The notes under the pieces: model-generated
Told to the model about the DNA's origin: nothing
What the model saw: only the letters and a program-made list of their open reading frames with translations
The model's database searches: none
Made by a program: the position numbers and the translations under genes
Part shown: positions 1-41,503 of the stretch, piece after piece
Numbering within the stretch: position 1 is the first letter of the stretch
Layout: every line of letters begins with the position of its first letter
IMG/VR virus record: IMGVR_UViG_3300017747_002445
Span: 1-43,371 of that record
DNA from: a virus
Taxonomy: Duplodnaviria; Caudoviricetes
Direction: 5' to 3' (one strand)
DNA length: 43,371 nucleotides

Positions 1-17
1 ATTTGTCCTGTATTCAT
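1..17 (-). CDS. 5' end of an ORF running off the window (MNTGQ...)
   Basis: ATG at 17-15 on the - strand, just after the T-run of the 23-57 hairpin. Only 5 codons are visible. Confidence 0.4.
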
Positions 18-22
18 AAGAT

Positions 23-57
23 AAAAAAAGCTCGCAAGAACCACTTTGCGAGCTTTT
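23..57 (-). terminator. Intrinsic terminator or attenuator hairpin
   Basis: Perfect 12-bp inverted repeat (26-37 / 46-57), 8-nt loop, ending in T7 on the - strand. Confidence 0.8.
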
Positions 58-132
58 GAGTTGGTTAGTATTTGTAACCACCTTCCAACCCCCGGTTGCT
101 GTGGTTCTTTAGCAAACGGGGGGCGGAATATT
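23..132 (-). ncRNA. Candidate structured leader or small RNA (three hairpins, loop-loop complementarity)
   Basis: Lies between the promoter at 137-168 and the terminator at 23-57. Hairpin 1 TTCC..CCCCC..TTGCT/AGCAA..GGGGG..GGAA, hairpin 2 TGGTTA/TAACCA, then the terminator. Confidence 0.6.
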
Positions 133-136
133 TTAG

Positions 137-168
137 CAAACATAAAACAACCACGCGAGGTTGTCAAG
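137..168 (-). promoter_or_regulatory. Bacteroidota primary-sigma promoter with a palindrome in the spacer
   Basis: CTTG(168-165)-N20-TATGTTTG(144-137). The spacer contains ACAACC-N6-GGTTGT (147-164). Confidence 0.7.
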
Positions 169-355
169 GATTTTCTTCATTATTTTTTATGTGCCATGTT
201 TCGCACTCCCAACACATATACACCTGCTGGTCGTAATCACAGTTCTCCTGGGCCTCTTTACGAGTCTTGTAACACCTTTTGCCACAGCCATATATGGAGT
301 TTTTAATCATAAACCCAAGCGATAAGAGTACCAGTATAATTGAGCAGATAAACAT
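164..355 (-). CDS. Small membrane-anchored Cys/His (probable Zn-binding) protein
   Basis: Hydrophobic N-terminus, then CGKRCYKTRKEA...YMCWECETWHI. Has its own promoter directly upstream. Confidence 0.7.
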   Translation of the reverse strand: MFICSIILVLLSLGFMIKNSIYGCGKRCYKTRKEAQENCDYDQQVYMCWECETWHIKNNEENP

Positions 356-396: not shown

Positions 397-427
397 CTTG
401 ACACTGTGTGATTTGTTTGTATATTTG
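397..427 (+). promoter_or_regulatory. Bacteroidota-type promoter (rightward, head of the packaging operon)
   Basis: CTTG(397-400)-N19-TATATTTG(420-427), with ATG at 432, 4 nt downstream. Confidence 0.75.
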
Positions 428-431
428 CAAT

Positions 432-647
432 ATGACAAAGTTGAGACCACCAGACGGACGTGTTTTTGTATCGCTTGATAAAAAGCACAAATACCAAATG
501 GACGTAACGATAACTGCCGTTGGAAACGGGGTAGACCTTGAGGTTGGAAAAAAGGTTTGCGTTGTCGGTAAAATGCAGAGAGTTGAACTTCAAGACATTG
601 AGATTTATTCTGTCAGTGTTGACAATATTGCTTTTTTATATGAATAA
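432..647 (+). CDS. Minimal GroES/Cpn10-like protein (71 aa)
   Basis: KLRPPDGRVFV...ITAVGNGVDLEVGKKV...YSVSVDNIAFLYE follows the GroES pattern. Start moved to ATG 432. Confidence 0.7.
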   Translation: MTKLRPPDGRVFVSLDKKHKYQMDVTITAVGNGVDLEVGKKVCVVGKMQRVELQDIEIYSVSVDNIAFLYE

Positions 648-1965: not shown

Positions 1966-2615
1966 TAAAATTAGATTTTAGTAAAATATCATACAACATT
2001 GAAGGCGTGCCTGATGACGAGTCGGTAATATATCGCTTTTCAGATTTGGCTAGTCAAGCTCACATTCTTGACAGATCTGACGACCTTCCCGAAGGCGTTA
2101 GTGCTGATAAGGTTGTGCGCTACCTCATATATATGTTCGCTCCAGGAACGCCTGTTAAAGATGCGTATCCGGACATCAACCAGCGCAAACGATATACGCT
2201 TAACAAACTGAACATAATGGTTGATGACACGGATCCAGAGAACGGGTACGCTCAGCTCTGCATGATGAATGTGGACTGGGCGGTGGAGCGGTACATTGTG
2301 TTCACGCGATTACAATGCTCGGAGGACTACTCAATCATGAGTACAGCGGATATCCGAATAGCTGCGTTGCAGAGGGCGCTTTTGACTCAGCCTGTGGACA
2401 GGTCTAATGACGATAAGAACTTCCAAGCGGGACTTGAGAGTTGGCGCCAAACCCTAGTAGATGCGCGTACTCGAATCATGAATGACGAGGTAAGTATAAC
2501 CTTGCAGAAGGCGATTACCTTCTCAGTTCGTGCAGAGAACTTGGGCATACAGCCCGAACACTACTCCCGCATATGGCGTGAGAAGAAAGAAATATTCCCG
2601 GAGGTAATACCATGA
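1962..2615 (+). CDS. Hypothetical protein, possible terminase small subunit
   Basis: Coupled by ATGA directly upstream of TerL. Function inferred from position only. Confidence 0.45.
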   Translation: MIKLDFSKISYNIEGVPDDESVIYRFSDLASQAHILDRSDDLPEGVSADKVVRYLIYMFAPGTPVKDAYPDINQRKRYTLNKLNIMVDDTDPENGYAQLCMMNVDWAVERYIVFTRLQCSEDYSIMSTADIRIAALQRALLTQPVDRSNDDKNFQAGLESWRQTLVDARTRIMNDEVSITLQKAITFSVRAENLGIQPEHYSRIWREKKEIFPEVIP

Positions 2616-5074
2616 AGTACGAATACGATGAGGAGGATAAATATGTTTCGTTCCATGAGGACGACGATGAATTGGACACGATTCGCATTCCGCTGCCGCG
2701 TCTGGAAGAATGGTATTCTCACCATCTAAATCGAGAGGTAACAAGAGAAGAGGCTCTCACGTATGTGGACGGGTATGGATTAAACCCAAAAGACCAAAAG
2801 TTTCAATATCAGGAAACACCTGAGAAGATAAAGCTTATCTATGAGGTTGTGTTCAATAAGAAGCACGAAACCAACAAATCCAAATACAAGGAAGTAGGCG
2901 ACGTAAGGCTTGAGGACATCTACGAAGAGATTGAATCAAACCAAAAGTACTACTCGATGGAGATTGAGTGGATCAAGCTCCAGATAAAACGCAGATACGT
3001 TGGGTACTGGTGTTTCATTAAAGGGAAACCCACATACATAAACGGCGCAAACTATTTCTTCCTAAACTTCTGGACGGTAAAGAACTTTGGTAAAAACAAC
3101 AACCGTCCAGACTACCGTGATTATCAGAGAAAGATGTTTCATCTGTTCATGTATGCTTATACGACAGAAGATGCATTTTACAAGCATAGGGTTTTCTACA
3201 GACAAGACGGTGTCGTGAAGACAAGACACTCCAATCAAGACACCAAGAATGTTGTAGAGGACATGAATGAGATGAACGTGGAGTATTACATCGAGCCGAA
3301 TGTAAACGTCACGGTTTCAAAAGGAAAGAGGACTGTTCACGGTATCAACTTTGTCTCCGGGCGACGTATCGCCAAGACAGCAATTGCTTGCTGTTTCTGT
3401 ACGTGGGGAACACTCAATATGCCTGACCAAACCTTTATCATCCAGGCGATGAATGAAGACCAGGCGGTAAACAAGATATTTATAAAGCAAATTCAAACAC
3501 CAGTAAGCAAGCTCCCCTTCTTCTTCCGTCCGCATTACCGTGGTCGAATCGAGGCGAAGGAGGGCTTGCGTTTTCAGTATGAAGGAGCAATCGCATCAGC
3601 AGCAAGAGCAGGAATTATCCCTGAGCAAATGGAGTGCTTCATCACGCCGCTCCCATCGACGGAGAAAGCGGCGGATGGAGAAGCGGAAATCGCATTTGTC
3701 TACCGCGACGAGCCAGCGAAGAAAACGGATGCGAAGGCGGCAGACCAAAACATCCCGACGTGGTGGTACAACACGATGAAGCCAGCCATCGAGCGAGGTG
3801 AGAACATTCGTGGGTTCTGCATCATGCCGTCTACGGTGGGTGACATGGACACAGGTGGTGGAGCGCAGTTCTTTGACATTGCCAACGACTCGCACTTCTC
3901 TGACCGAAATGAGAACGGGACAACCCCGTCAGGACTCATCAACTTCTTCCTTCCCGGTTACTATGCGGTAGAGGGTTACATTGACGAGTACGGGGCAAGC
4001 ATCATCGACGACCCCAAAGAGCCAGTAATGTCCAACGAGGGTAAGTGGATCACCAAGGGCGCTAAGTCATACCTACTAAACCAGGCGGACTACTTCGAAC
4101 GCAAGCGTGAGTGGCAGAAGCTGATCAAGTTGCAGCAAAACTTCCCAATGACGTGGAAACAAGCGTTTGCCGTAATCCCCAAAGATATGGGTATGCCCAT
4201 CGAGAAGATGCGTGACCGTATATCCGAGTTGAAGTTTTCTCGAACTCCAATCAGTACCAAGATAAATTTCAAATGGGCTGGAGATAAGTTTGGAGGGGAT
4301 GTGTACGTGGAGAACGACCCGAAGGGAAGTTGGACAATGAGTTATCTTCCACCAAACGAAATGAGGAATAGAAGAACGGTTGTAACGATGGAGGAGGGTT
4401 ATATACCACCCAAGGAGAAAGGACCAATATATGCTCCCGACCCTTCCGTGATGAACAAGTTCTTCCTTTGTTGTGACCCGGTAAAGTTCCACAAGAGAAA
4501 CACTGTAGGTAAGAAGAAGTCGAATGCAGCAGCAGCGGTTTTCTACAAACGAGATAGTCAAGTAGACCCAGATAACAAGCCTAGAAACGAATGGGTTAGT
4601 AATGACTGGGTACTGATTTACAACAGACAAACTGAAGACAAGGCTGAATATCACGAGGAGTGGTTAAAGGCTGCTGTGTTTCTTGGGGCATACGTCTACC
4701 CTGAATGGCCCGATGGAGAAGCCCTTGTCGAATATTTCAGAGATAACGGGTTTGATGGTTATCTATTGAAAGACTTAGGTTCCGACGGAAAGCAAGATGT
4801 AAGACCAGGTGTTTGGGCTGGGGAGGCTGAGAAAAACGAAATGGCTGGAGACATCATGACCTTCTTTAACAACAATGTTAAGTACGTGAAAATGTGGGAG
4901 ATAATTGAGGAATGGAGTCAGATGAGGGGACTTGACGACTTGACGAACCATGACTTGTGCGCCGCTACAGGTTGGTGCATGAGAGCCATAAAAAGCAGAA
5001 TGCCAGACATTTACAAGGAGGTGTATCAGCCAATAGAGATAACAGGAGGCTTTACAATGTTTGATGTAGAGTGA
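2612..5074 (+). CDS. terL: Terminase large subunit (crAss-like type)
   Basis: YINGANYFFLNF, Walker A-like GRRIAKT, Walker B FVYRDE, motif III PST, FFLPGY, nuclease CCDP...HDLCAA. Precedes the portal gene. Confidence 0.92.
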   Translation: MKYEYDEEDKYVSFHEDDDELDTIRIPLPRLEEWYSHHLNREVTREEALTYVDGYGLNPKDQKFQYQETPEKIKLIYEVVFNKKHETNKSKYKEVGDVRLEDIYEEIESNQKYYSMEIEWIKLQIKRRYVGYWCFIKGKPTYINGANYFFLNFWTVKNFGKNNNRPDYRDYQRKMFHLFMYAYTTEDAFYKHRVFYRQDGVVKTRHSNQDTKNVVEDMNEMNVEYYIEPNVNVTVSKGKRTVHGINFVSGRRIAKTAIACCFCTWGTLNMPDQTFIIQAMNEDQAVNKIFIKQIQTPVSKLPFFFRPHYRGRIEAKEGLRFQYEGAIASAARAGIIPEQMECFITPLPSTEKAADGEAEIAFVYRDEPAKKTDAKAADQNIPTWWYNTMKPAIERGENIRGFCIMPSTVGDMDTGGGAQFFDIANDSHFSDRNENGTTPSGLINFFLPGYYAVEGYIDEYGASIIDDPKEPVMSNEGKWITKGAKSYLLNQADYFERKREWQKLIKLQQNFPMTWKQAFAVIPKDMGMPIEKMRDRISELKFSRTPISTKINFKWAGDKFGGDVYVENDPKGSWTMSYLPPNEMRNRRTVVTMEEGYIPPKEKGPIYAPDPSVMNKFFLCCDPVKFHKRNTVGKKKSNAAAAVFYKRDSQVDPDNKPRNEWVSNDWVLIYNRQTEDKAEYHEEWLKAAVFLGAYVYPEWPDGEALVEYFRDNGFDGYLLKDLGSDGKQDVRPGVWAGEAEKNEMAGDIMTFFNNNVKYVKMWEIIEEWSQMRGLDDLTNHDLCAATGWCMRAIKSRMPDIYKEVYQPIEITGGFTMFDVE

Positions 5075-5137: not shown

Positions 5138-7534
5138 ATGATATTGCCACAGTTGGTCGGTAGCGTGTTGTTCCCTAGCGACAACATACCCGAAAGCGAG
5201 AAGTCGAAGCCTGAGTTTGGTTTACGTTGCGCCAGAGCGCTGTATACTCGTTTTTGCGCCGGTGGAACTTATTTTACATACACGCAGCTCCCAGAGATGC
5301 AAGAGACCCGAAACTACGGGGCCGGCAATCAGTCTCAGGAAAAATACAAGAACTGGTTTACCAATGGGTCTCCAATCGGCTCCAAGGGCATAACACAGGG
5401 AGAGGCTTCCTCAACCACCAAGGGAATGAGCAAAGCTCAGAGAAAGGCGATGGCTAATATTAGCTATGATATTTTCTCACCTATGAGAAAGCTATCTAAC
5501 GTGTTGCTTTCTGTTTTGTCTGACAACGATTATAAGGTTCAGTGTCAATCACTTGACCAAAGAATAGTAAAGAAAAAAGCAGACTCTAAATACGATACGT
5601 ATTCTAAGTCAAAATACATAAATCCACTGCTGTCAAAAATAGGCAGACCAACACACAGCTTGCCTTTTGAGGTCACGGACCCCACAATGTTGGACATGGC
5701 TGATCGACTTGGTTTTTTCAAAACAAAATACGAGGTTGCTTTAGAGAAACTGGCGGAGGCTGGTTTTAGAGCGTCAAACTGGGCTGGCCAAAGAATGGAC
5801 TTCAACAGGGACGCTATTGACTTTCATTTTCGCGCAGCTAAAATATACAACGACCCAATTACAGGGCAAGTAAAGGTTCAGTACGTTGATCCAGCCAGAA
5901 TGGTTATGCTTTGGAACGAAGACAACCAAGAGGAGCCTGTAGCAATTGGTCACATTGAAGCGGAGACTATTCAGTCGATGTATAGCAAGCTAATAGAGGC
6001 CGGATTTAGTGACGACCAAATTCAGGCGATGGCTAAGTCTTACGTGCCTTATCAAACTAACATCTCTACCATTCCTCAGTGGGCATTTGAACGCAAGGAT
6101 TCGACCACCAACCGTTGGGTGTGGATGGACTTCAAGGTTTACGTGCTGAAGTTTGAGTATTTATCTACAGACTATAAGCAGTACGTAGAGCGCACTAACA
6201 AGCAAGGATACACAACTTATCTACGCAATAATAAGCCGGTAGAAGAAAAGAAAAAGAATCCAAACGAAAACTACGACGAGGTAAGTTGTAACTACTGGTA
6301 TGAGGGTTCTTACATCATCTCAGGTACAGGCCAGGATCGCATCTACGAATGGAAGAAGAAGCCAAACCAGATGCAGAAGGGCTTATCTCCAATGAGTTCG
6401 TATGTAATCCACCGAATCAACGGTCAATCTCCTACACGCAGCGTGAAGGGGTTGCTTGATGATTTGATGTTTGCGGTATTGAAGTTGCGTGCGGCGGTAT
6501 GGGCTGCTGCTCCAAAAGGATATAGAATTGATGTGGGCGAAGCCGCCAACATCAAGATTGGAGGTGTAGAGTACGACCTGTTCGACCTCATGCACATCCA
6601 CCGTCAAAACGGTATTCAGATTGTCGCCACCAAGTTTAACGCGGCAACCGGTAAGTACGTATCTCAGCCATTGGCTGAAATGGACAACGGTTTAGGTCCA
6701 CAGGGTCAAGAGTGGCTTGCTCAAATTGCAAACCTACAAATGATGATTAAGGATTTGATGGGCATCCCAGACGCGATGGCCGCTAGTCCGGATCAGTCAG
6801 CTGAAAGATTGGTTGGTGTAATAGAGCAGGACTTTGTTGCGGGAAACCACGCGAACTGGCCTCTTCGAGAATCTGAGCGTCAGTTCAAGCAGAAAATAGG
6901 TGAGCGTATCATCCATCAGGCCCGAATAGACATAGAGTTTGACCCTAAGATTAAAGAGTTTTACAAAAGCATCATAGGTCAGCACATGATAAATGCGCTA
7001 GACGAAATAGAGGGCTTGTCACTTGACCAGCTGGCTATTTCTTGCAAGGTGTTGCCGAACGAAAAAGAAAAGGGATCCATTCTCCAGCGTGCAATACAAA
7101 TGTCTCAGATACCAACAAAAGATGGTTCTGTTCTCTTGAGTCCTTCAAGCGTAGAGCGTGTAGCCCAATTGTTGCGTAACGGAGATGTCGATGAAGCATT
7201 GTGGTTTATGGCTACAGAAGAAACGATTGCCCGTAAGCGCGAACAGGAGAATGCTCAGATGATGATGCAGCAAACCATCCAGGGTCAGCAGCAATCCGCT
7301 CTTATGACCGAGGAGGCTAAACGCAAGACCATGATGCAGAAAATGCAGATGGATATAGCCAAGCATAGAGAAATGGCCAATATGGACATGGTTAAGGAGC
7401 AAGAGATTCAAAGAATTAAGGCAGACTCAAACTACCAGGTTCAGTTATTGAAAGGAAAACAAGTTCTGGATCAGATAACGCTTGAGGCTACTTTAGAGGC
7501 GGAAATGGGAAATGAAATAACAGGAATAGTATAA
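5138..7534 (+). CDS. Portal protein
   Basis: 798 aa after TerL. FPSDNIPESEK start, VQYVDPARMV, DLMGIPDAM, and a Q/M-rich coiled-coil C-terminus typical of podovirus and crAss-like portals. Confidence 0.88.
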   Translation: MILPQLVGSVLFPSDNIPESEKSKPEFGLRCARALYTRFCAGGTYFTYTQLPEMQETRNYGAGNQSQEKYKNWFTNGSPIGSKGITQGEASSTTKGMSKAQRKAMANISYDIFSPMRKLSNVLLSVLSDNDYKVQCQSLDQRIVKKKADSKYDTYSKSKYINPLLSKIGRPTHSLPFEVTDPTMLDMADRLGFFKTKYEVALEKLAEAGFRASNWAGQRMDFNRDAIDFHFRAAKIYNDPITGQVKVQYVDPARMVMLWNEDNQEEPVAIGHIEAETIQSMYSKLIEAGFSDDQIQAMAKSYVPYQTNISTIPQWAFERKDSTTNRWVWMDFKVYVLKFEYLSTDYKQYVERTNKQGYTTYLRNNKPVEEKKKNPNENYDEVSCNYWYEGSYIISGTGQDRIYEWKKKPNQMQKGLSPMSSYVIHRINGQSPTRSVKGLLDDLMFAVLKLRAAVWAAAPKGYRIDVGEAANIKIGGVEYDLFDLMHIHRQNGIQIVATKFNAATGKYVSQPLAEMDNGLGPQGQEWLAQIANLQMMIKDLMGIPDAMAASPDQSAERLVGVIEQDFVAGNHANWPLRESERQFKQKIGERIIHQARIDIEFDPKIKEFYKSIIGQHMINALDEIEGLSLDQLAISCKVLPNEKEKGSILQRAIQMSQIPTKDGSVLLSPSSVERVAQLLRNGDVDEALWFMATEETIARKREQENAQMMMQQTIQGQQQSALMTEEAKRKTMMQKMQMDIAKHREMANMDMVKEQEIQRIKADSNYQVQLLKGKQVLDQITLEATLEAEMGNEITGIV

Positions 7535-28832: not shown

Positions 28833-29324
28833 ATGAAACCAAATACGTTAGATCAAGCAGTAGTCAATTTGATGTTGCCTCGTCTTGAGGATGAGTTAAA
28901 CGCCTTTTATTTTTATCGAGCCGCCAGCAACTGGTGTCAAGGCGTTGGTTTCTTCAAGGCGGGTGAATTTTTCGCTAATGAGTCTAATGACGAGCTGGAA
29001 CACGCCAAGAAGATTGAGAAGTACTTGGTAGACTGGAACGTGGATCCGGCATTGCCATCAATACCAAAGCCACCCATCAAGTTCACTGGTCTGCTTGATG
29101 TTATCGAAAAGGCGTACAGAATCGAATACGAATTGTACGAAGCATACGAAGACACGTCAATGGCTCTGTTCAACATGGATCTGTGCGTGTTTGATTTTTT
29201 CCAAGAGTTCAGAACTTTGCAAAAGAATGCTGTTGCTGAGTATAGCGACAAGTTGAATATGCTTGAGGGTGTAACACCCGCTGGCAAGTTGGAAATGCTT
29301 CTGTTGGAGAAAAAATTGTTCTAA
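28833..29324 (+). CDS. Ferritin-family protein
   Basis: E21, Y28, E54, H57, E98 and Q130 match the ferroxidase-centre spacing of non-haem ferritin. Has the LPSIPKP loop. 163 aa. Confidence 0.9.
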   Translation: MKPNTLDQAVVNLMLPRLEDELNAFYFYRAASNWCQGVGFFKAGEFFANESNDELEHAKKIEKYLVDWNVDPALPSIPKPPIKFTGLLDVIEKAYRIEYELYEAYEDTSMALFNMDLCVFDFFQEFRTLQKNAVAEYSDKLNMLEGVTPAGKLEMLLLEKKLF

Positions 29325-33404: not shown

Positions 33405-33436
33405 TTTGCACAATCCAATGTGCAATTGTAAATTTG
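33405..33436 (+). promoter_or_regulatory. Consensus Bacteroidota promoter (rightward) with an operator-like palindrome
   Basis: TTTG(33405-33408)-N20-TAAATTTG(33429-33436). TTGCACA-N6-TGTGCAA at 33406-33425. Confidence 0.8.
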
Positions 33437-33440
33437 CTCC

Positions 33441-33512
33441 GGTTACTGGTAATACATAGTGTTTAAGTGTGTAGTTTTCCCTGGGCAAAGGCCTGGGGAT
33501 TTTTTTATATTT
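33441..33512 (+). ncRNA. Candidate ~70-nt GU-rich small RNA or attenuated leader
   Basis: Runs from the promoter to the TCCCTGGGC-AAAG-GCCTGGGGA hairpin (two G-U pairs) followed by T7. Confidence 0.55.
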
Positions 33513-33530: not shown

Positions 33531-34181
33531 ATGATTGAATTGAAACTAGCGGATCCAACCCCGCATGAATTAAGTGAATATAGAGTGCTAATTAACGAAC
33601 TGAAAGAGAAGTTTCCTGATGCCTCTATATTGGTTGAAAGGGGTGTTGGAGACTACGCTATAAGCAATACGTCAATATTTATAGACGATGATAAAAGGAC
33701 TAACTGGCATTCCGCGATTTACCCATCAGTTCCCAACCGGGGGACAGCCCAAATCAAGGCGGATATTCTGTCCCTTACCTTCGCTATGCGTGAACTTGGG
33801 TTTGATGTCAAGTTTCTGGACAGCGATCCAATCATTCGTGAAAAGGTTTCGATAACTCGTGGTAAGCTCAATTCTTGTGTATCTCTTCGTCAAATGGTGG
33901 AACTCCTGGAGGAGGCGAATCACGAAAAAATCGACGAAGTAAAAGTAATGATAGAGAACAAACGCAAGAACGGCGGTCGTCCTAGCAAGAAGTCTGTGAT
34001 TGAATTTATCTTTTCTGGCGTACGTGAAGAGAAGCGGATGCAGCCTGTTCGGACCGGACCAGAGTGGGCGCGTGTGAAGATGGAATGGCGTGATAGATTT
34101 ACCTCTTCTAAGTATGCGAAAATGTACAAAAGTCTCGATGAATTTTGTACCTTCGCCACAGAAGAAGAGTGTAAATTATGA
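33531..34181 (+). CDS. Hypothetical protein (216 aa)
   Basis: ATG 33531 preferred over GTG 33459, which lies inside the RNA/terminator. TATATTTG at 33506-33513. ATGA overlap with the fibre gene. Confidence 0.7.
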   Translation: MIELKLADPTPHELSEYRVLINELKEKFPDASILVERGVGDYAISNTSIFIDDDKRTNWHSAIYPSVPNRGTAQIKADILSLTFAMRELGFDVKFLDSDPIIREKVSITRGKLNSCVSLRQMVELLEEANHEKIDEVKVMIENKRKNGGRPSKKSVIEFIFSGVREEKRMQPVRTGPEWARVKMEWRDRFTSSKYAKMYKSLDEFCTFATEEECKL

Positions 34182-37100
34182 ACTTTATAATATCGAATAT
34201 TCAAGTAAACGGAAACGATACCGTTTCCTTTCTGAATACAAGTGGTCTTGTAAGGACCATGAGTCGCATTTTGCCGACCAGTCCAAACTTTATATCGTAC
34301 AGATATGACACTATAACGATTAGCGAGTCCAATGGGGAATCGTTTTCGTTTCCCGTCTATCAGATAGAACTGATTGGGACTGTAGCTTATACCGTTCTAA
34401 ATTTCACAGATGCTCCTTCTACGGTTGAGGCCAAAACGGTTTCCATTTACAATCAACTAACTACGTTTGTTTTCCAGGCTTGCTGCGATTGCGAGGGCGG
34501 TGGTAGCGGAGGCGGTGGTTGCTTTTCTGTTTTCTCCTTGGCTGACGGACCAGTGGCTCCGACTGGTAGTTTTACGTTGAAAAACGTAACAAACCCAGGT
34601 TCAACGGTTTTTCCTCCTGGTCAAATAGCTCAAATTTCCATTAGCAACTTTACATTTGGCTCGGTGCAGGACTTGACGAACCTGTTCCCGGCAATACCTG
34701 AAGGTTCTTGGATATTTGTTTACAATGTAGACGATCCGTCTAACTTTATAATACTCAGCATAACAGCATACTCTGCGTCACAATTGCCTAATGGTTTTTA
34801 TGACTGTGTCGTAATTGATTCTTCTGGAGGATTTAGTAGTTACAACAACAAGTACTGCATAGACTTTTCTATTTCAGGGGAAATCGGGAGTATCCCAAAA
34901 TGGCAGCAGACATTGGACTCTGACTCCACTTTGAATAAGGACAACTTCATTTACGCAGACATCAACGCCACGCACACGTTCTCAATGAACGAGTTCCTCA
35001 ATATAAACTTCAACACTAATGAAGAGTTTGCGGGGGGGTCAAATGCGGGGCTTGGGATTTCAAATTATGTTAGATCAAACGGCACGTCGGATTTTATTAG
35101 GCTGGAGTCATACCAAACCAACGCAGGCCCAGGAACGGGTCTTTATGTTCAAGTCGGCTCAGACCAAGGTGGTACACCTGGCATTATAATTCAAACCCTT
35201 AACGCCAAAAACTCGGTAGCACAGCCTGGCGACGTGCTTGTTTATCAAGGCGATGGAACTGTTGAATACCAAACTATAACCACCGTTGGTACGGTAACTT
35301 CTGTGGGTCTTGTAATGCCAAACGCCTTCACGGTAACCAATTCCCCAATCATTGATTCGGGAGACTTGACTGTAGAGGGTGCAGGGGACGCAACCGAGTA
35401 CATCAATGGTCTTGGTGAGTTAGCCACGCTTCCTGTCTACACCGCTAACAATGGATTGAATAACACAGCGTCTCCTACGGTAATACAACTGGGAGGAACA
35501 CTGCTTGACGATACTGCAATAAGCACAGACGGAAACACGCTTTCTATTGAAGGATCTATAGGTCAAAGCACTAGCCGTCCATTTACTGTGTTCAACTTGG
35601 GAACCGCTGGGGTAGCTAACTTTTTTGCATACGGAAACTCTTCTTCAAGCTCCGTGTTGATCTCGAACGAGATTGAGAACACTTACTCCCCATTAACTGT
35701 CAGAAACAAGTACGACTCTACAGGTAATAAGACCATATTGACTTTGTCTCAGGAGTCGTTATCTGACCCAGTTAACTCTACTCTTTCTGTAGACATGAAC
35801 CTTTCCGGGTCTTCTGCTCGCCCATCTGCCGCGAGGTTGACTGCTGGGGTATCAAGTGCTGCTGCCGCTCCTAACTTCAGGTCTAACTTCAGCATCGAGA
35901 CTGTTTGGAATTCTTCTGGCCCATCTGCGGCCCTTAGCATTCTTTCAGATGGTAAGATGAAGTTTAACGCCTACACGCCTGGTCAGTTCTCGTCGGCCTA
36001 TCAGTCTCTTTTGGCGGTAAATAGTTCAGGAGAGGTTGTAACAACAACTGGTTCGGGCTTCATTGTTTCTATAACAGGAACGGCCCCAATAAATGTGACT
36101 TCGGGTGTTAACCCTGTGATCTCTATGCCAGCCGCTACGGTTGGTCAGGATGGCTACTTGACCTCTGTTGCGTATAATTTATTCAACAACAAGCAAAACC
36201 CAATAACATTAACCACCACTGGCACAAGTGGCCCTGCTACTTTCGTTGGGTCCACCTTGAACATCCCTCAATACGTGGGCAACTTGGTTCAGGCAGGCAG
36301 CGGTTTGAGTGAGTCGTCAAGCATCATCAGTTTGGGACACCCTTCTCAGGCCCTAGCTTTATCCAGTCCTCTTACGCAGGATTCATACATAGCAAATAAT
36401 GGTTTTGATTTTGTAGTATTAGGAACGAAGGCTGAAGAGATTTTAAAAGTTCAAAACACCTTATTAAACTCAAACTTAGGAACGGGATTTTCTGCTGTAT
36501 CTAATGGAGGTAATGCTATTGTTGCTTCTCAGAATTTTACCGGAACAATAACTGGCTCATACACAGGAAAAACGGCGGGAGTTAATTCGTTTTCGAATGT
36601 TGGTTTTGGAGTATATGCTGAGTCTAGAATATATACTTGCGGGTACTTTGAGCTTTACAACCTAGTGCCAATTGACTTCCCTGCATTACACGCTAAAAAG
36701 AATACAAGGGAGAAATCAAACGATTATGATGAGGTTCTAAGGATAGAAAGAGCTGGCCCTGGAGATGGCAATAGAACACCCGGCATAGGGTTTGGTGCTG
36801 TTTCAACCTATTGGTTGCGGTATGGCTCTTCTGTTGCTAACGTTTCAAAGGCGGGTAGCATTGGATTTTCATGGATCAGCCCTACTACTCAGGATTCTGA
36901 GTTCATTGTCGCCCCGACAACTGCTGGAGTTGAAAACACAAGATTAAAATTAAAAAACACAGGACAGTTACAACTAACCGCCTACACTCCGTCTGCATTT
37001 CCAGGGACTGTAGCTTCATACCTTGGTGTTGATTCTCAAGGAAATGTCATTCAAGGTCCTGGCGGGGGTGGCGGTGGCGGTGGCCTTACTGGAGCCTATA

Positions 37101-40100
37101 ATGGTTTATCTGTAGTATCAAATAGCGCAGTATTGGGAGGCCCTCTCACGGGACTCACTTTGATAAGCAGCTCTGGATATGGATTGCAGATTTCAGGCAA
37201 CGTTCCGTCTTCTCAGACCGCTTCTCTGTACGTTCAAAATACTAATACCGGCACTAATCCTATCGCCATTAGAGGCGACGCAACAGGTTCTGTAAGCTCT
37301 GTGGGTGTTTTTGGATCTTCCGATACAGGGCGAGGCGTGACTGCAATATCCTCTTCAGGAACTGGCATAATCGCCACATCTTTAAGTGGCATTGGCGCTG
37401 TAGTAACCTCCAATAGTATTTTTGCTATTCAGGCCGAAACCAACAACAGCAGCGCGAATACAGTGCAGCCAATAATGTGGCTGAACAGGAACTCCTCTAG
37501 TGCGGCTCAAGACAACATTGGTGGCTCGATTAATTTTGCTATTAAGACCACTAGCGGATCGTTGGGGGTCTCAAACTTGATTGTAAGTAAATGGACTAAT
37601 GCTACTGAGGCCTCAAGGACTAGCCAGTTTGAAATACACGGAGTAAACAGCGCTGTAAATCCTTCTGCTTATTTTACATTGAAGGGAACTGGCCAGGCTC
37701 AATTTAACCAGTACACCAACTCTTCTTTATTTAATGGTACTGTATCGGCATATCTTGCTGTAGACGCTCAAGGAAATGTTATTCAAACAACCGGGGGTAC
37801 GGGCGGCGGGTCTCTTGCTTCGTTGAGTGACGTACAATTAGGAACCCTTTCTAACGGTCAGGTTCTTCAATATGATTCAATTTCATCTAAATGGGTGAAC
37901 GCATCCGTGTCTCCTTTGACCGATGGCAACAAGGGTGATATTACGGTGTCTGGCGGCGGCGCTACATGGACGATAAACAATAATACCGTAACGTATAGCA
38001 AGCTGCAAGCAGCGTCTTCGTCAAGTCGTATTATCGGATCGCCAAGCACGGGTACTGCTTATCAAGAGTTGACGGTTGGTAACGGGTTAAGCATATCAAC
38101 CGCACAGATTGGTCTGGGCGGGACAATGAATACTGGTCAGACCACTATAACTCATGCTGCTTCTAATTTGGCATTTAGTGGGACGGGTGCTGTAGCTACA
38201 GGTACGGGAACTGTTTCTTCTCTTGTACAAATAAGAAACACATCAACAGCGTCTTTTTCTTACGGGCTAGAGGTCTTGGGGGGAACGCGAGGAACCGCTT
38301 ATTTTGAAACAGGTAACGCAGGTGGCACATCTGCGATTGATACTGGTTTTGCTGTTTACGCATCAAACAATACTACTCATACCAATTACCCAATAATATT
38401 TGAATCCGAAAAAAAGAAAACATTTAGAATATTAGCGGGTACAGCAAACGGGTCTGTTGGTGATGAAGTTTTTCTAATAGAAAATCAGGTTTCCGGGGCG
38501 CCATCTGGAGGTAGCACTCTGTTGTCCTTATTCTCTAGACCGTCTTCCGGAGCAGCGTCAAGCGCAACTCAGGGGATATCGTCTATAGTTTTTACCGGAA
38601 GGGACTCAGCTAGTTCAACCGTAGCTTATAGGTATTCCCAAATAGAGGCGGGATCTCAAAATCACCTAAACGCAAGCAAGGCTGGTTATTTTGACTTTAA
38701 AGTAATAAGAACTGGTGGGTTAAATCCAACAAGCACTTTAAAGGTAAACGGAACGGGACAGATTCAGTTTGCAGCATATACCTCATTGAGTGCGTTTCCT
38801 GGGACCTCGGTAGCCTCCTTGGGTGTGGACAACGCCGGTAACATCATAACTATTACAGGTGGACCAGGATCCTCTCCGTTGACTACCAAAGGCGACTTAT
38901 ATACGTTTGACACCACCAACGCTAGACTCCCGGTCGGCACGAATGGACAAGTTCTATTGGCTGACAGCACAGCAGTTACAGGATTGCGTTGGTCCACCAT
39001 TGGGGCATTGACAGATGGCAACAAGGGTGACATAACTGTATCTGGAGGTGGCACAACATGGACTATTAATAACGACGCTGTCACCTATGATAAAATTCAA
39101 AATTCCTCAGTTGGCGTTGGTTATAGCGGTTCTGTTTTGGGTTCTTTTTTAAGCGGAGCTTCTTACGGCCCATTAGATGTAGCTAATGGCTTGAGTGTTA
39201 CCACGTCTGGTAAATTGATTTTGGGAGGTACGTTAGAAAGTAACGCATCGATTGTAGTTCCAGTAAGCACTGGATTTCAGGTGCAGGGTGAAGGAGTCTT
39301 AGTCAGCGTTATTGGTCTTTATTCAACCAAGGGCATGGTTAACATCGTCGACGAGGGGGTGTTAGATATTGCTAAGTCTGCATTAGACCTTTACAGTGAA
39401 AGCAACATAGGACTAACCGTAGGTAACAGCGCAATGCTGCCTACTTTAAGGGTCAATAAATCAGGTGCGTTTGCGTTAAGTTCTGTTATCGAAAATAATT
39501 ATGCGATATCCGTAGTACCTAATCAATGGGGGGTTCTGTTTGCGAATAATCAAGCTAATGATGTTATTTCTTCTGTTAGAATTCAAAAGGGTGCGTTTAC
39601 CGGAAGTATTAGACCCGATGGAACTAATATTCCCGTTTCTCAATATGAAAGCCTTTCGTCTGTATTTACAAACAACGCTTTAGACATACTTGAAATAAAC
39701 AGAAATCTTTATGGTGACGTCTTTGGGGGTGTTCCATCAGATGGATACGGAGCAAGTATTTTGTATAGGCTTTCTCCAACAACTGGAGGGGTTACCAGTA
39801 CTGGTGTTCCTGTTTTTAGATTGACTTCTTTTTGGCAAAATACGTCGTCTAATGTTGCTGCGTTTACTGTGTCTGCAAAAACAAGCACCTCCGCAAGTTC
39901 TTGGGAAAATATATTTACGGTGGTAAACTCAGGTCAGGTAAGACTAAATGCATACACTTCGTCTTCTGCATTCCCCGGCACTTCGGTGGCTAGTTTGGCT
40001 GTCGATAGCAATGGTAACATTATAACTCTATCGGGAGGCGGAGGTCTTAGTTCTGTTGGACTTAGTATGCCTTCCGCGTTTACTGTAGCCAACTCCCCTC

Positions 40101-41503
40101 TTACTGCTAATGGAACCATCGCGGTAACGGGCGCGGGTAACACAGGACAATATGTTCGAGGCGATGGTACTCTTGCAAACTTCCCTTCAACAGGTGGTGG
40201 AGGTGGACAGATATTCTACTTCAATGGCAACACATCGCAACCATCAATAGGCGGCAATGCTTACTACGAATTAGGTACAGCGGCAGGCACAGGCCCGGCG
40301 GCCAATTTCACAGCCAACACCACAGGCCCGATCGCTAGGTTTATAACTGATGTCAATTCACCAAACCACTTGGTCATTCCGTCGGGTGTATGGACGATTG
40401 ACGTTTACTTGAGCGAGGCGGGAGGTGGATCGAATAGTGCTGAGGTGGTTGCCAAACTTTATAAGTACGACGGTAGCGCGTTTACCTTAATAGCAACCTC
40501 ACCGCTTGAGCAGATAACAAACGGCAGCACTCCTGACTTGTATACGTTTGCTATCTCAGTGCCGAATACGACAACAACCGCTACCGATCGAATAGCTATT
40601 GAGTTTGATATTCAAAACACAAACGGCAAGACGGTTACTCTGTACACCGAGAGCGACAAGATTGGCGAGGTGCATTCGACTTACGCTATCGGAATCAGCT
40701 CGCTTAACGGCTTGACTGACAACACGCAAACCTTTGCCACAGGCACAGCCGGAACCGACTTTGGAATAAGTAGCACAGGAAGCGTACACACCTTCAACCT
40801 ACCTACTGCCAGCGCATCTAATCGTGGTGCGTTGAGCAGCGGGGATTGGACGACGTTTAATAATAAACAAGAAGCCATAACGGGTGCAGCTACTACGATA
40901 ACAACATCAAATTTAACCGCATCAAGGGTACTTGTGTCTAACACAAGCGGCAAGGTTGCGGTAAGTAGTTCGTTGGTGGGTCATAACCTAGCGACATTGA
41001 CCGATCCGTCTCAAACTAGTTACTTAAAAATAAATTCAGACAATACTGTTTCGGCTATTACGGCGGCTCAATTAAAGATTGATTTGGGTATAGTAACGAA
41101 CAGGGTGGTTTTGGCAAGTAACTTTACTACTACTGCTGCAAATACTTACCAAACAGTAACAGCATTTGAATTCCCCGTTACATCTGGAAAGACATATATC
41201 TTCCGTGTGGTTGCGGGTATAACCCAGACCGGGCAAGGAAACGTAAGTGTTACAGGGCCTACCGCTAGTGTGATTAGATATGGTTTTACTTTAGCCAACA
41301 CCGTTGATGCTAACGTAAGAAATAACCAGACAGCATACGACCTACCAGCGGCCAACAAAACCCTCATCAACGGTATGATGACGGGTGAAGGCTTGATAGC
41401 GGCTACTGCAACTGGAACGGTAAGCATCCGACTCAGGTCTGCCGCTACGGGAGGCGTTACGTTACTTGCGGGTTCAATCATCGAGTGGCAAGAAGTTTTA
41501 TAA
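34178..41503 (+). CDS. Long modular tail fibre protein (2441 aa)
   Basis: G/S/T-rich with recurrent fibre motifs: GTVTSVGL, FNNKQ, DGNKGDITVS, LTTKGDLYT...RLPVGTNGQVL, LSDV..LSNGQVLQYD. Confidence 0.88.
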   Translation: MNFIISNIQVNGNDTVSFLNTSGLVRTMSRILPTSPNFISYRYDTITISESNGESFSFPVYQIELIGTVAYTVLNFTDAPSTVEAKTVSIYNQLTTFVFQACCDCEGGGSGGGGCFSVFSLADGPVAPTGSFTLKNVTNPGSTVFPPGQIAQISISNFTFGSVQDLTNLFPAIPEGSWIFVYNVDDPSNFIILSITAYSASQLPNGFYDCVVIDSSGGFSSYNNKYCIDFSISGEIGSIPKWQQTLDSDSTLNKDNFIYADINATHTFSMNEFLNINFNTNEEFAGGSNAGLGISNYVRSNGTSDFIRLESYQTNAGPGTGLYVQVGSDQGGTPGIIIQTLNAKNSVAQPGDVLVYQGDGTVEYQTITTVGTVTSVGLVMPNAFTVTNSPIIDSGDLTVEGAGDATEYINGLGELATLPVYTANNGLNNTASPTVIQLGGTLLDDTAISTDGNTLSIEGSIGQSTSRPFTVFNLGTAGVANFFAYGNSSSSSVLISNEIENTYSPLTVRNKYDSTGNKTILTLSQESLSDPVNSTLSVDMNLSGSSARPSAARLTAGVSSAAAAPNFRSNFSIETVWNSSGPSAALSILSDGKMKFNAYTPGQFSSAYQSLLAVNSSGEVVTTTGSGFIVSITGTAPINVTSGVNPVISMPAATVGQDGYLTSVAYNLFNNKQNPITLTTTGTSGPATFVGSTLNIPQYVGNLVQAGSGLSESSSIISLGHPSQALALSSPLTQDSYIANNGFDFVVLGTKAEEILKVQNTLLNSNLGTGFSAVSNGGNAIVASQNFTGTITGSYTGKTAGVNSFSNVGFGVYAESRIYTCGYFELYNLVPIDFPALHAKKNTREKSNDYDEVLRIERAGPGDGNRTPGIGFGAVSTYWLRYGSSVANVSKAGSIGFSWISPTTQDSEFIVAPTTAGVENTRLKLKNTGQLQLTAYTPSAFPGTVASYLGVDSQGNVIQGPGGGGGGGGLTGAYNGLSVVSNSAVLGGPLTGLTLISSSGYGLQISGNVPSSQTASLYVQNTNTGTNPIAIRGDATGSVSSVGVFGSSDTGRGVTAISSSGTGIIATSLSGIGAVVTSNSIFAIQAETNNSSANTVQPIMWLNRNSSSAAQDNIGGSINFAIKTTSGSLGVSNLIVSKWTNATEASRTSQFEIHGVNSAVNPSAYFTLKGTGQAQFNQYTNSSLFNGTVSAYLAVDAQGNVIQTTGGTGGGSLASLSDVQLGTLSNGQVLQYDSISSKWVNASVSPLTDGNKGDITVSGGGATWTINNNTVTYSKLQAASSSSRIIGSPSTGTAYQELTVGNGLSISTAQIGLGGTMNTGQTTITHAASNLAFSGTGAVATGTGTVSSLVQIRNTSTASFSYGLEVLGGTRGTAYFETGNAGGTSAIDTGFAVYASNNTTHTNYPIIFESEKKKTFRILAGTANGSVGDEVFLIENQVSGAPSGGSTLLSLFSRPSSGAASSATQGISSIVFTGRDSASSTVAYRYSQIEAGSQNHLNASKAGYFDFKVIRTGGLNPTSTLKVNGTGQIQFAAYTSLSAFPGTSVASLGVDNAGNIITITGGPGSSPLTTKGDLYTFDTTNARLPVGTNGQVLLADSTAVTGLRWSTIGALTDGNKGDITVSGGGTTWTINNDAVTYDKIQNSSVGVGYSGSVLGSFLSGASYGPLDVANGLSVTTSGKLILGGTLESNASIVVPVSTGFQVQGEGVLVSVIGLYSTKGMVNIVDEGVLDIAKSALDLYSESNIGLTVGNSAMLPTLRVNKSGAFALSSVIENNYAISVVPNQWGVLFANNQANDVISSVRIQKGAFTGSIRPDGTNIPVSQYESLSSVFTNNALDILEINRNLYGDVFGGVPSDGYGASILYRLSPTTGGVTSTGVPVFRLTSFWQNTSSNVAAFTVSAKTSTSASSWENIFTVVNSGQVRLNAYTSSSAFPGTSVASLAVDSNGNIITLSGGGGLSSVGLSMPSAFTVANSPLTANGTIAVTGAGNTGQYVRGDGTLANFPSTGGGGGQIFYFNGNTSQPSIGGNAYYELGTAAGTGPAANFTANTTGPIARFITDVNSPNHLVIPSGVWTIDVYLSEAGGGSNSAEVVAKLYKYDGSAFTLIATSPLEQITNGSTPDLYTFAISVPNTTTTATDRIAIEFDIQNTNGKTVTLYTESDKIGEVHSTYAIGISSLNGLTDNTQTFATGTAGTDFGISSTGSVHTFNLPTASASNRGALSSGDWTTFNNKQEAITGAATTITTSNLTASRVLVSNTSGKVAVSSSLVGHNLATLTDPSQTSYLKINSDNTVSAITAAQLKIDLGIVTNRVVLASNFTTTAANTYQTVTAFEFPVTSGKTYIFRVVAGITQTGQGNVSVTGPTASVIRYGFTLANTVDANVRNNQTAYDLPAANKTLINGMMTGEGLIAATATGTVSIRLRSAATGGVTLLAGSIIEWQEVL

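What the first reader, a model, noticed from the sequence alone, without database searches (positions are those of the whole stretch)
15..168. Candidate RNA switch: leader hairpin loop complementary to its own terminator loop
Seen: a - strand promoter (168-137) would give a ~110-nt RNA with hairpin 1 (loop AAAGAACCAC), hairpin 2 and a 12-bp terminator, then an ATG. The loop AAGAACCAC (109-101) is a perfect 9-nt complement of GTGGTTCTT (44-36), which covers the terminator loop and the start of its 3' arm. A second GTGGTT just after hairpin 1 and a second AACCA in hairpin 2 allow mutually exclusive pairings. Inference: a kissing-loop or pseudoknot attenuator controlling the leftward gene, conceptually like P4 CI or P1 c4 RNA control. 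I do not recognise it as a named family.
Basis: partly seen in the sequence, partly recalled or inferred. Interest (0 to 1): 0.8.

Follow-up and report, generated by a model that had tools for sequence, protein, structure and literature searches.

The report
Self-addressed RNA gate on phage replication
In a family of uncultured phages the DNA-replication genes are preceded by a ~110-base leader whose first hairpin loop is complementary to the loop of a predicted transcription terminator; the two loops stay matched through five different versions, so the pairing is real, and it likely acts as an RNA gate that the phage's own terminated leaders would close in a version-specific way.

Summary
Window 144-15 (minus strand) is the leader of the replication operon (initiator, primase-helicase in relatives) of an uncultured, probably Bacteroidetes-infecting tailed phage. 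It folds into three hairpins, the last a terminator 8 nt before the ATG. In 56 of 56 unique relatives' leaders, the hairpin-1 loop and terminator loop keep a 7-bp complement through five alleles of equal strength that barely cross-pair; identical middle segments occur with different alleles, never with a mismatched pair. A second copy elsewhere in these genomes keeps 8-10 bp in 22 of 22 leaders, with ten words. No Rfam match, no conserved antisense promoter, nothing in nine paper searches. Most likely an attenuator: cis capture favours read-through and released leaders block it in trans, allele-specifically. Direction, trans action and transcription itself are untested. It works like plasmid rep attenuators and P4 CI but belongs to neither. 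The scan noted the same architecture earlier on other phage DNA (unchecked notes).

The parts
137..167 (-). Predicted promoter of the leader: TTGACA (167-162) and TATGTTTG (144-137), fitting the Bacteroidetes TAnnTTTG element (consensus recalled); start expected near 133-132
   Evidence: Sequence. All 56 leaders have a TAnnTTT(G/A) at this spacing, but that was a selection criterion; TTGACA lies upstream in 50 of 56. Start site not mapped.
83..128 (-). Hairpin 1, a long interrupted stem (16 bp here; median 16 in relatives)
   Evidence: Fold. In alignment A2, 9 of its 17 pairs change on both sides and 92-94% of cells pair; stem length.
101..107 (-). Recognition word GAACCAC in the hairpin-1 loop (loop 110-101)
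   Evidence: Five alleles in 56 unique leaders, each matched to its own terminator loop.
59..82 (-). Hairpin 2, a spacer hairpin highly variable in sequence
   Evidence: Predicted in the individual folds; 30 different middle segments among 56 leaders. The consensus fold of A2 did not recover it; its rows are poorly aligned there.
23..57 (-). Predicted intrinsic terminator: 12-bp stem 57-46/37-26, loop 45-38, U7 tract 29-23
   Evidence: 4 of 8 core pairs change on both sides, 98.5% of cells pair.
38..44 (-). Complementary word GTGGTTC in the terminator loop
   Evidence: Exact complement of the hairpin-1 word in 56 of 56 leaders.
1..17 (-). Start (MNTGQ) of the replication-initiator gene, cut by the contig end
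   Evidence: Relatives continue into 213-270-aa proteins; three tested match PHROG 270 replication initiation protein (E 4e-16 to 6e-27); a primase-helicase follows.
164..355 (-). Upstream 63-aa ORF whose stop codon overlaps the -35 hexamer; not required for the element
   Evidence: No Pfam or PHROG hit; present before 45 of 56 leaders and absent in the divergent ones.

Best explanation
This is a conserved leader RNA in front of the phage replication operon whose hairpin-1 loop and terminator loop are a covarying complementary pair, and it likely works as a product-feedback attenuator: pairing within the growing RNA would favour read-through, while released terminated leaders would block that pairing in trans. 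Shown: three-hairpin anatomy, position 8-15 nt before the initiator ATG, covariation of both flanking stems and of the loop pair, and matched alleles. Inferred step 1: most transcripts stop at the U tract and release a ~110-nt RNA. Inferred step 2: as GUGGUUC leaves RNA polymerase it can be captured by the hairpin-1 loop before the terminator closes (a pseudoknot or a nested rod), which allows transcription of initiator and primase-helicase. Inferred step 3: the released RNA exposes the same word in its terminator loop and pairs with the hairpin-1 loop of new transcripts of the same allele, so termination rises as leader RNA accumulates. That would limit or time replication-gene output and act only on phages sharing the allele.
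For: Loop words match in 56 of 56 unique rep leaders: GAGCAAC 28, GAACCAC 24, GTGGAGT 2, GTAAGGC 1, GAGTCAC 1. Four identical middle segments occur with two different alleles and no mismatched hybrid was seen. Cognate duplexes are -9.0 to -9.7 kcal/mol; non-cognate ones are no better than -3.4. The terminator separates the promoter from essential replication genes. In the nascent RNA, a fold that pairs the two words and opens hairpin 1 lies a median 3.6 kcal/mol above the minimum, within 3 in 19 of 56. Stem lengths (hairpin 1 median 16 bp, terminator median 12 bp, 4 unpaired linker nt) suggest by hand arithmetic that both stems and an intramolecular kiss cannot easily coexist. A second copy of the element in the same phage family keeps 8-10 bp in 22 of 22 leaders with 10 words; its word barely pairs with the rep-leader word of the same genome in the 7 genomes compared (matrix). 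A sister clade has a ~65-aa helix-turn-helix ORF in the same slot (3 of 5 tested hit repressor or HTH families) and no model hit. Precedents for parts: P4 CI and IsrK, leader-derived RNAs acting in trans (PMC4825925); plasmid rep attenuation and the ColIb-P9 pseudoknot (PMC8383071).
Against: Nothing shows transcription from this promoter, termination or trans action; the RNA runs were low-depth contigs without strand. In the full-length RNA the terminator is favoured by 10-17 kcal/mol, so read-through must be kinetic. A dedicated antiterminator stem beyond the loop helix beats shuffled arms in only 23 of 56 rep leaders (not in the window's own allele class) and 1 of 22 second copies. Two alleles account for 52 of 56 rep leaders, which is weak diversification. 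Several second-copy words cross-pair with each other down to -10 kcal/mol. No tyrosine integrase was found in 5 complete relatives, and no partition or repressor hit among 43 ORFs of one genome, so a resident prophage needing copy control is not evident. The geometry argument was not modelled, and ViennaRNA does not score pseudoknots.
Confidence: 0.5

Rival explanations
1. Cis-only kinetic attenuator: the loop pairing sets a fixed or elongation-rate-dependent leak through the terminator, and released leaders play no part; alleles are compensatory drift.
For: Needs only the covarying pair. Equal duplex strength across alleles fits a tuned threshold. Two alleles dominate.
Against: Does not explain why alleles barely cross-pair, or why the second copy carries ten words in 22 leaders while most of its stems stay similar.
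Confidence: 0.2
2. The kiss forms with both hairpins intact and stabilises the terminator (default off); a phage protein or another RNA breaks it to switch replication genes on, in the way the corrinoid-riboswitch kissing loop stabilises a hairpin.
For: The loops look like kissing loops: 7 pairing nt plus 1-3 unpaired 5' nt, confined to the loops in the rep leader. Kissing loops steer terminators in corrinoid riboswitches (PMC10327014 passages).
Against: Stem and linker lengths look too unequal for an intramolecular kiss (rough). The second copy pairs 8-10 bp and invades stem ends. No conserved ligand- or protein-binding core is apparent across both copies, and no activator was identified.
Confidence: 0.15
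4. A countertranscript from the opposite strand controls the leader, as in pT181/pIP501 attenuation or ColIb-P9, competing with the terminator-loop word for the hairpin-1 loop.
For: An antisense RNA would present the same word as the terminator loop. The opposite strand folds well, and the window's terminator is A-flanked and so potentially bidirectional.
Against: An opposite-strand TAnnTTTG was found in only 16 of 56 leaders, all 96-157 nt inside rep, and not at one shared place. Divergent leaders lack the A flank. Other promoter types were not tested.
Confidence: 0.07

Closest known systems
Antisense-driven transcription attenuation of plasmid rep genes (pT181, pIP501), as reviewed in PMC8383071 (passages)
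   Same: A leader with a terminator in front of a replication-initiator gene; an RNA-RNA pairing is thought to decide termination.
   Different: There the regulator is a countertranscript. Here both partners lie in one strand, so alleles need double changes, and no conserved antisense promoter was found.
ColIb-P9 / IncI repZ pseudoknot blocked by Inc RNA (PMC8383071 passages)
   Same: A hairpin loop pairs in cis with a downstream word to switch on the initiator, and a competing RNA blocks it.
   Different: That system controls translation through an antisense RNA. Here the downstream word is the loop of a terminator, and the competitor would be the terminated leader itself.
Phage P4 CI immunity RNA (seqA/seqC) and P1/P7 c4 in ImmI (PMC4825925, PMC10111431, PMC6906374 passages; Rfam C4, isrK)
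   Same: A sense-derived RNA from the leader of a phage replication operon causes premature termination; small sequence differences in ImmI give P1/P7 heteroimmunity.
   Different: No Rfam C4 or isrK match. There is one target word rather than sites on both sides, no Bro/eta-type frame runs through it, and no integrase was found in relatives.
Gifsy-1 IsrK (PMC4825925 abstract and passages)
   Same: A terminated leader acts in trans on its own read-through transcript.
   Different: IsrK activates translation of a Q-like antiterminator locus. There is no sequence match and no allele series of loop-terminator pairs was described in what was read.
Corrinoid riboswitch L5-L13 kissing loop (PMC10327014 passages)
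   Same: An intramolecular loop-loop pair steers terminator formation.
   Different: It needs a conserved aptamer and ligand, and L13 belongs to P13 rather than to the terminator hairpin. No riboswitch model matches here.

Membership tests
P4 CI / P1 c4 immunity RNA | Match to Rfam C4, c4-2, c4-a1b1 or isrK models | tested here: not met
   No hit at gathering threshold in the window, and none of these families among weak hits in the window or in 14 relatives' loci.
P4 CI / P1 c4 immunity RNA | Complementary targets both upstream and downstream of the regulator (seqA, seqC) | tested here: not met
   Extra copies of the word are not conserved and do not follow the allele.
P4 CI / P1 c4 immunity RNA | Regulator derived from the sense leader of a replication operon | tested here: inconclusive
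   Position before initiator and primase-helicase is met; the existence of the short RNA is not shown.
P4 CI / P1 c4 immunity RNA | Processed stable RNA that causes termination and immunity in trans | not testable with these tools
   Needs RNA mapping and infection assays.
Plasmid antisense attenuators (pT181, pIP501) | Terminator in the leader of a rep gene | tested here: met
Plasmid antisense attenuators (pT181, pIP501) | Countertranscript with its own promoter across the leader | tested here: not met
   Opposite-strand TAnnTTTG in 16 of 56, only inside rep and at three places; only this promoter type was tested.
Plasmid antisense attenuators (pT181, pIP501) | Conserved alternative antiterminator stem | tested here: inconclusive
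   Better than shuffled arms in 23 of 56 rep leaders; clear in the divergent alleles, absent in the GAACCAC class.
ColIb-P9 / IncI repZ pseudoknot | Covarying pairing of a hairpin loop with a downstream word near the rep start | tested here: met
   56 of 56 matched, 5 alleles.
ColIb-P9 / IncI repZ pseudoknot | Translational control by antisense Inc RNA | tested here: not met
   The downstream word sits in a terminator loop and no conserved antisense promoter was found.
Corrinoid riboswitch | Conserved aptamer matching Rfam cobalamin models | tested here: not met
phi29-type packaging RNA | Three-way junction with paired ends and a phi29-type motor (recalled) | tested here: not met
   Three successive hairpins; terminase large subunit and portal in the window.
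phi29-type packaging RNA | Intermolecular loop-loop rings | not testable with these tools
   Needs native gels or structure work.

The most novel reading that the evidence does not exclude
A self-addressed attenuator: one short sense RNA is both target and regulator, its terminator loop is the address, and matched alleles define RNA-encoded exclusion groups among phages that show no integrase or repressor. Each genome would use two insulated copies, one on the initiator/primase-helicase operon and one on an exchangeable second cassette that may be another replicon.
Probability: 0.35. Interest if true: 0.88.

Novelty: new variant of a known kind. Interest (0 to 1): 0.74.

Why it matters
RNA control of replication with allele specificity is known from plasmids (antisense RNAs) and a few temperate phages (P4, P1). 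Here the same logic appears to be packed into one ~110-nt sense leader, with the terminator loop as the recognition word, in phages with no integrase found. If released leaders act in trans, this is a new route to replication feedback and phage-phage exclusion. The natural series of 15 matched words (5 in the rep leader, 10 in the second copy) gives ready-made compensatory and specificity controls for a direct test, and a possible set of independent transcription switches for Bacteroidetes.

Tried and rejected
Rfam: no hit at gathering threshold in the window. Weak sub-threshold hits (Phe/Trp/Thr leaders, trpB, Arrc14) reflect the terminator; none for the second copy. blastn of 1-450 against annotated phages and of the second copy against plasmids found nothing. 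A terminator-stem-only pattern mostly returned unrelated hairpins; part of that script's output was cut. A hairpin-1 pattern with the loop left free gave 68 loci and no new rep-leader allele; 15 loci were chance hits, so the intermediate word one change from three alleles was not found. Sister-clade phages (helicase ~51% identical): no element before rep, and 0 of 5 records matched model R1, only 1 of them rated complete. Bacteroidota genomes: 0 of 5 MAGs with related helicases; in 151 genomes only weak hits, with 22 candidates scored per genome; the 30 inspected were ordinary terminators, one with a 7-nt match overlapping a stem. Locus L422 has a related rep start but a different leader and was left out of the 56; loci with under 125 nt upstream were skipped. 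RNA runs X1-X3 are contigs only: one ends just past the U tract, one bridges the terminator, depth 2-4.5, no strand; treated as uninformative. Two structure predictions of the 239-aa protein behind the second copy had not finished at submission, so its fold is open. The alignments of Fremin et al. 2023 (PMC10690425) could not be searched (two zip files, three oversized files); motif and contig-name searches in four readable files found nothing, so the motif could be among those unannotated candidates.

Full report
Setting. The window is a 43-kb fragment (G000) of a tailed phage with a large terminase at 2612-5074 and a portal at 5138-7534. Its nearest annotated terminases, about 25% identical, are mostly from Flavobacterium and Cellulophaga phages. 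Together with the TAnnTTTG promoter motif (consensus recalled) this points to a Bacteroidetes host; that is an inference. The finding lies at the left contig end, reading away from the virion genes.

Observation. The 9-mer at 109-101 is the complement of 44-36. On the single sequence, a 7-nt or longer complement of the terminator loop inside a hairpin loop arose in 601 of 200,000 shuffles. Rfam gives no match at gathering threshold and only terminator-driven weak hits.

What follows the leader. Relatives fetched by pattern and by protein show that MNTGQ begins a 213-270-aa replication initiator; the three tested match PHROG 270 at E 4e-16 or better. A primase-helicase, a 211-aa protein and a DnaA-C-type helix-turn-helix protein follow. 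The initiator's N-terminal half is exchangeable: at least three types occur, each with both common alleles, and the window's own leader sequence stands before two of them. The leader therefore separates a promoter from essential replication genes.

Covariation. I collected leaders by the rep start codons and promoter motif, not by loop sequence: 56 unique sequences from 196 instances, which include repeated fetches of the same contigs. Some loci had been fetched with loop-containing patterns, which inflates the GAACCAC count. L422 has a different leader and was excluded. In 56 of 56 the hairpin-1 loop holds a 7-nt word whose exact complement is the terminator loop: GAGCAAC 28, GAACCAC 24, GTGGAGT 2, GTAAGGC 1, GAGTCAC 1. 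L410 and L322 share an identical middle segment and differ by two compensated positions in the word. Four identical middle segments occur with two alleles, and no mismatched pair was seen, although the region is visibly mosaic. On alignment A2 (35 rows) 95.2% of cells pair and 16 of 32 pairs change on both sides; 0 of 500 shuffles reach this, and slid controls pair at 40-48%. Two divergent rows are misaligned at the terminator loop there, so the loop helix is undercounted, and related sequences make the shuffle test optimistic. All five cognate duplexes have 4 G-C and 3 A-U pairs (-9.0 to -9.7 kcal/mol); non-cognate pairs reach at most -3.4.

What did not hold. The extension to 9 bp is not conserved (0 extra nt in 18 of 56). 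The second GTGGTT occurs in 9 of 24 GAACCAC leaders and in 6 of 28 GAGCAAC leaders, where it has no partner. Hairpin 2 is a variable spacer. The 63-aa upstream ORF is missing before 11 of 56 leaders.

A second copy. Covariance model R1 found a weaker hit elsewhere in complete relatives, beyond the right end of the window. A terminator-stem pattern with the loop left free returned 36 loci; with L535, 32 of 37 are members and 5 are chance. All 22 unique leaders have the same plan and an 8-10-bp complement, with 10 words; one word uses a G-U pair that works only on that strand as RNA. It was found in 9 of 12 records examined. Behind its terminator lie three exchangeable cassettes. One is a 239-aa protein with two weak winged-helix stretches and only borderline initiator hits. 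The second is an 82-84-aa ORF. The third is a non-coding stretch, with a run of six or more G 116-120 nt downstream in 16 of 16 cases. A second replicon is a possibility, not a result. In the 7 genomes where both words were compared they barely pair with each other, but several second-copy words cross-pair among themselves.

Range. Phages with a ~51% identical helicase have a ~65-aa helix-turn-helix ORF directly before rep instead, and no model hit. Five complete relatives (66-70 kb, two with direct terminal repeats) gave no tyrosine integrase; serine recombinases were not searched separately. In 151 Bacteroidota genomes only ordinary terminators scored; this also shows that the loop complement is not a general property of such terminators.

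Mechanism. In full-length RNA the terminator wins by 10-17 kcal/mol, so any read-through is decided during transcription. When the RNA is cut at the end of the terminator loop, a fold pairing the two words lies a median 3.6 kcal/mol above the minimum in rep leaders and 3.8 in second copies; a pseudoknot that keeps hairpin 1, which ViennaRNA cannot score, could be more stable. Pairing of the terminator's 5' arm itself is better than shuffled in 23 of 56 and 1 of 22 leaders, so the selected feature is the loop helix rather than a classical antiterminator stem. With a 16-bp hairpin 1, an 8-12-bp terminator and about 4 free linker bases, a straight kiss would need roughly 9 nm between stem bases against about 4 nm of reach (hand arithmetic with recalled helix dimensions). 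I therefore favour capture of the single-stranded word before the terminator closes as the 'on' route. The released RNA would then keep both loops free, and its terminator loop could occupy the hairpin-1 loop of new transcripts, which is exposed for about 60 nt of transcription. That gives negative feedback limited to the same allele. I put this at 0.5; a cis-only leak (0.2), a terminator-stabilising kiss (0.15), a structural RNA (0.08) and a countertranscript (0.07) remain. An opposite-strand promoter motif was not conserved. RNA contigs were uninformative.

Comparison with known systems. It works like antisense attenuation of pT181/pIP501 rep and the ColIb-P9 pseudoknot (PMC8383071, passages), like P4 CI and IsrK (PMC4825925 abstract and passages; PMC10111431 passages), and recalls P1/P7 heteroimmunity (PMC6906374 passages) and corrinoid kissing loops (PMC10327014 passages). 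Terminator loops as functional sRNA elements are described in PMC11979758 (passages). It fails membership tests for each. Nine literature searches and passages of the motif surveys PMC2864571, PMC5737381 and PMC10690425 showed no description of this element. The library lacks most subscription papers, and the alignments in the PMC10690425 supplements could not be read. Earlier unchecked notes of this scan describe the same architecture on other phage and mobile-element DNA; none shares sequence with this stretch, and I did not test them.

Verdict. A real, covarying, apparently undescribed phage leader RNA with an allele series and a paralogue. It is a new variant of RNA-controlled replication attenuators; its direction and trans action await a simple experiment.

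Noticed in passing
L445:17007-17126 (+; G001), L448:5014-5128, L523, L526, L528, L535, L541, L543-L578; beyond the window's right end: A second copy of the element with 10 matched loop words, followed by one of three exchangeable cassettes: a 239-aa winged-helix protein, an 82-84-aa ORF, or a non-coding stretch.
   Followed up: partly
L574 and 15 other second-copy leaders, 116-120 nt after the terminator: The non-coding cassette holds a run of six or more G followed by a long pyrimidine tract in 16 of 16 cases. It recalls the G tract of the ColE1 primer RNA (recalled) and might be an RNA-primed origin.
   Followed up: no
L526:1611-2330: A 239-aa protein with 52 relatives at E up to 0.001, two weak winged-helix stretches and borderline replication-initiator hits; an RNase H gene converges on it. 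Fold prediction did not finish.
   Followed up: partly
window 164-147 (-): An inverted repeat ACAACC-N6-GGTTGT fills the promoter spacer; three relatives have the compensated ACAAAC/GTTTGT, others break it. A possible operator.
   Followed up: partly
window 367-355 (-) and 398-434 (+): Back-to-back TAnnTTTG motifs end 4 nt before the ATGs of the 63-aa ORF and of the first rightward ORF, suggesting leaderless mRNAs from a divergent promoter pair.
   Followed up: no
L155-L195, rep genes: The initiator's N-terminal half comes in at least four unrelated versions joined to one conserved C-terminal domain, independent of the leader allele.
   Followed up: partly
L422, 170 nt before position 1501: A related rep gene has a different leader: a long stem enclosing inner hairpins and ending in a T run, without the loop-word plan.
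   Followed up: no
window 33430-33510 (+): A TAAATTTG motif followed about 45 nt later by a GC-rich hairpin and T run inside the virion gene block: a small promoter-terminator pair before the next ORF.
   Followed up: no
window 28833-29324 and 34178-41503: A ferritin-like gene (PF00210) among virion genes, and a 2441-aa protein with a DUF5907 repeat.
   Followed up: no
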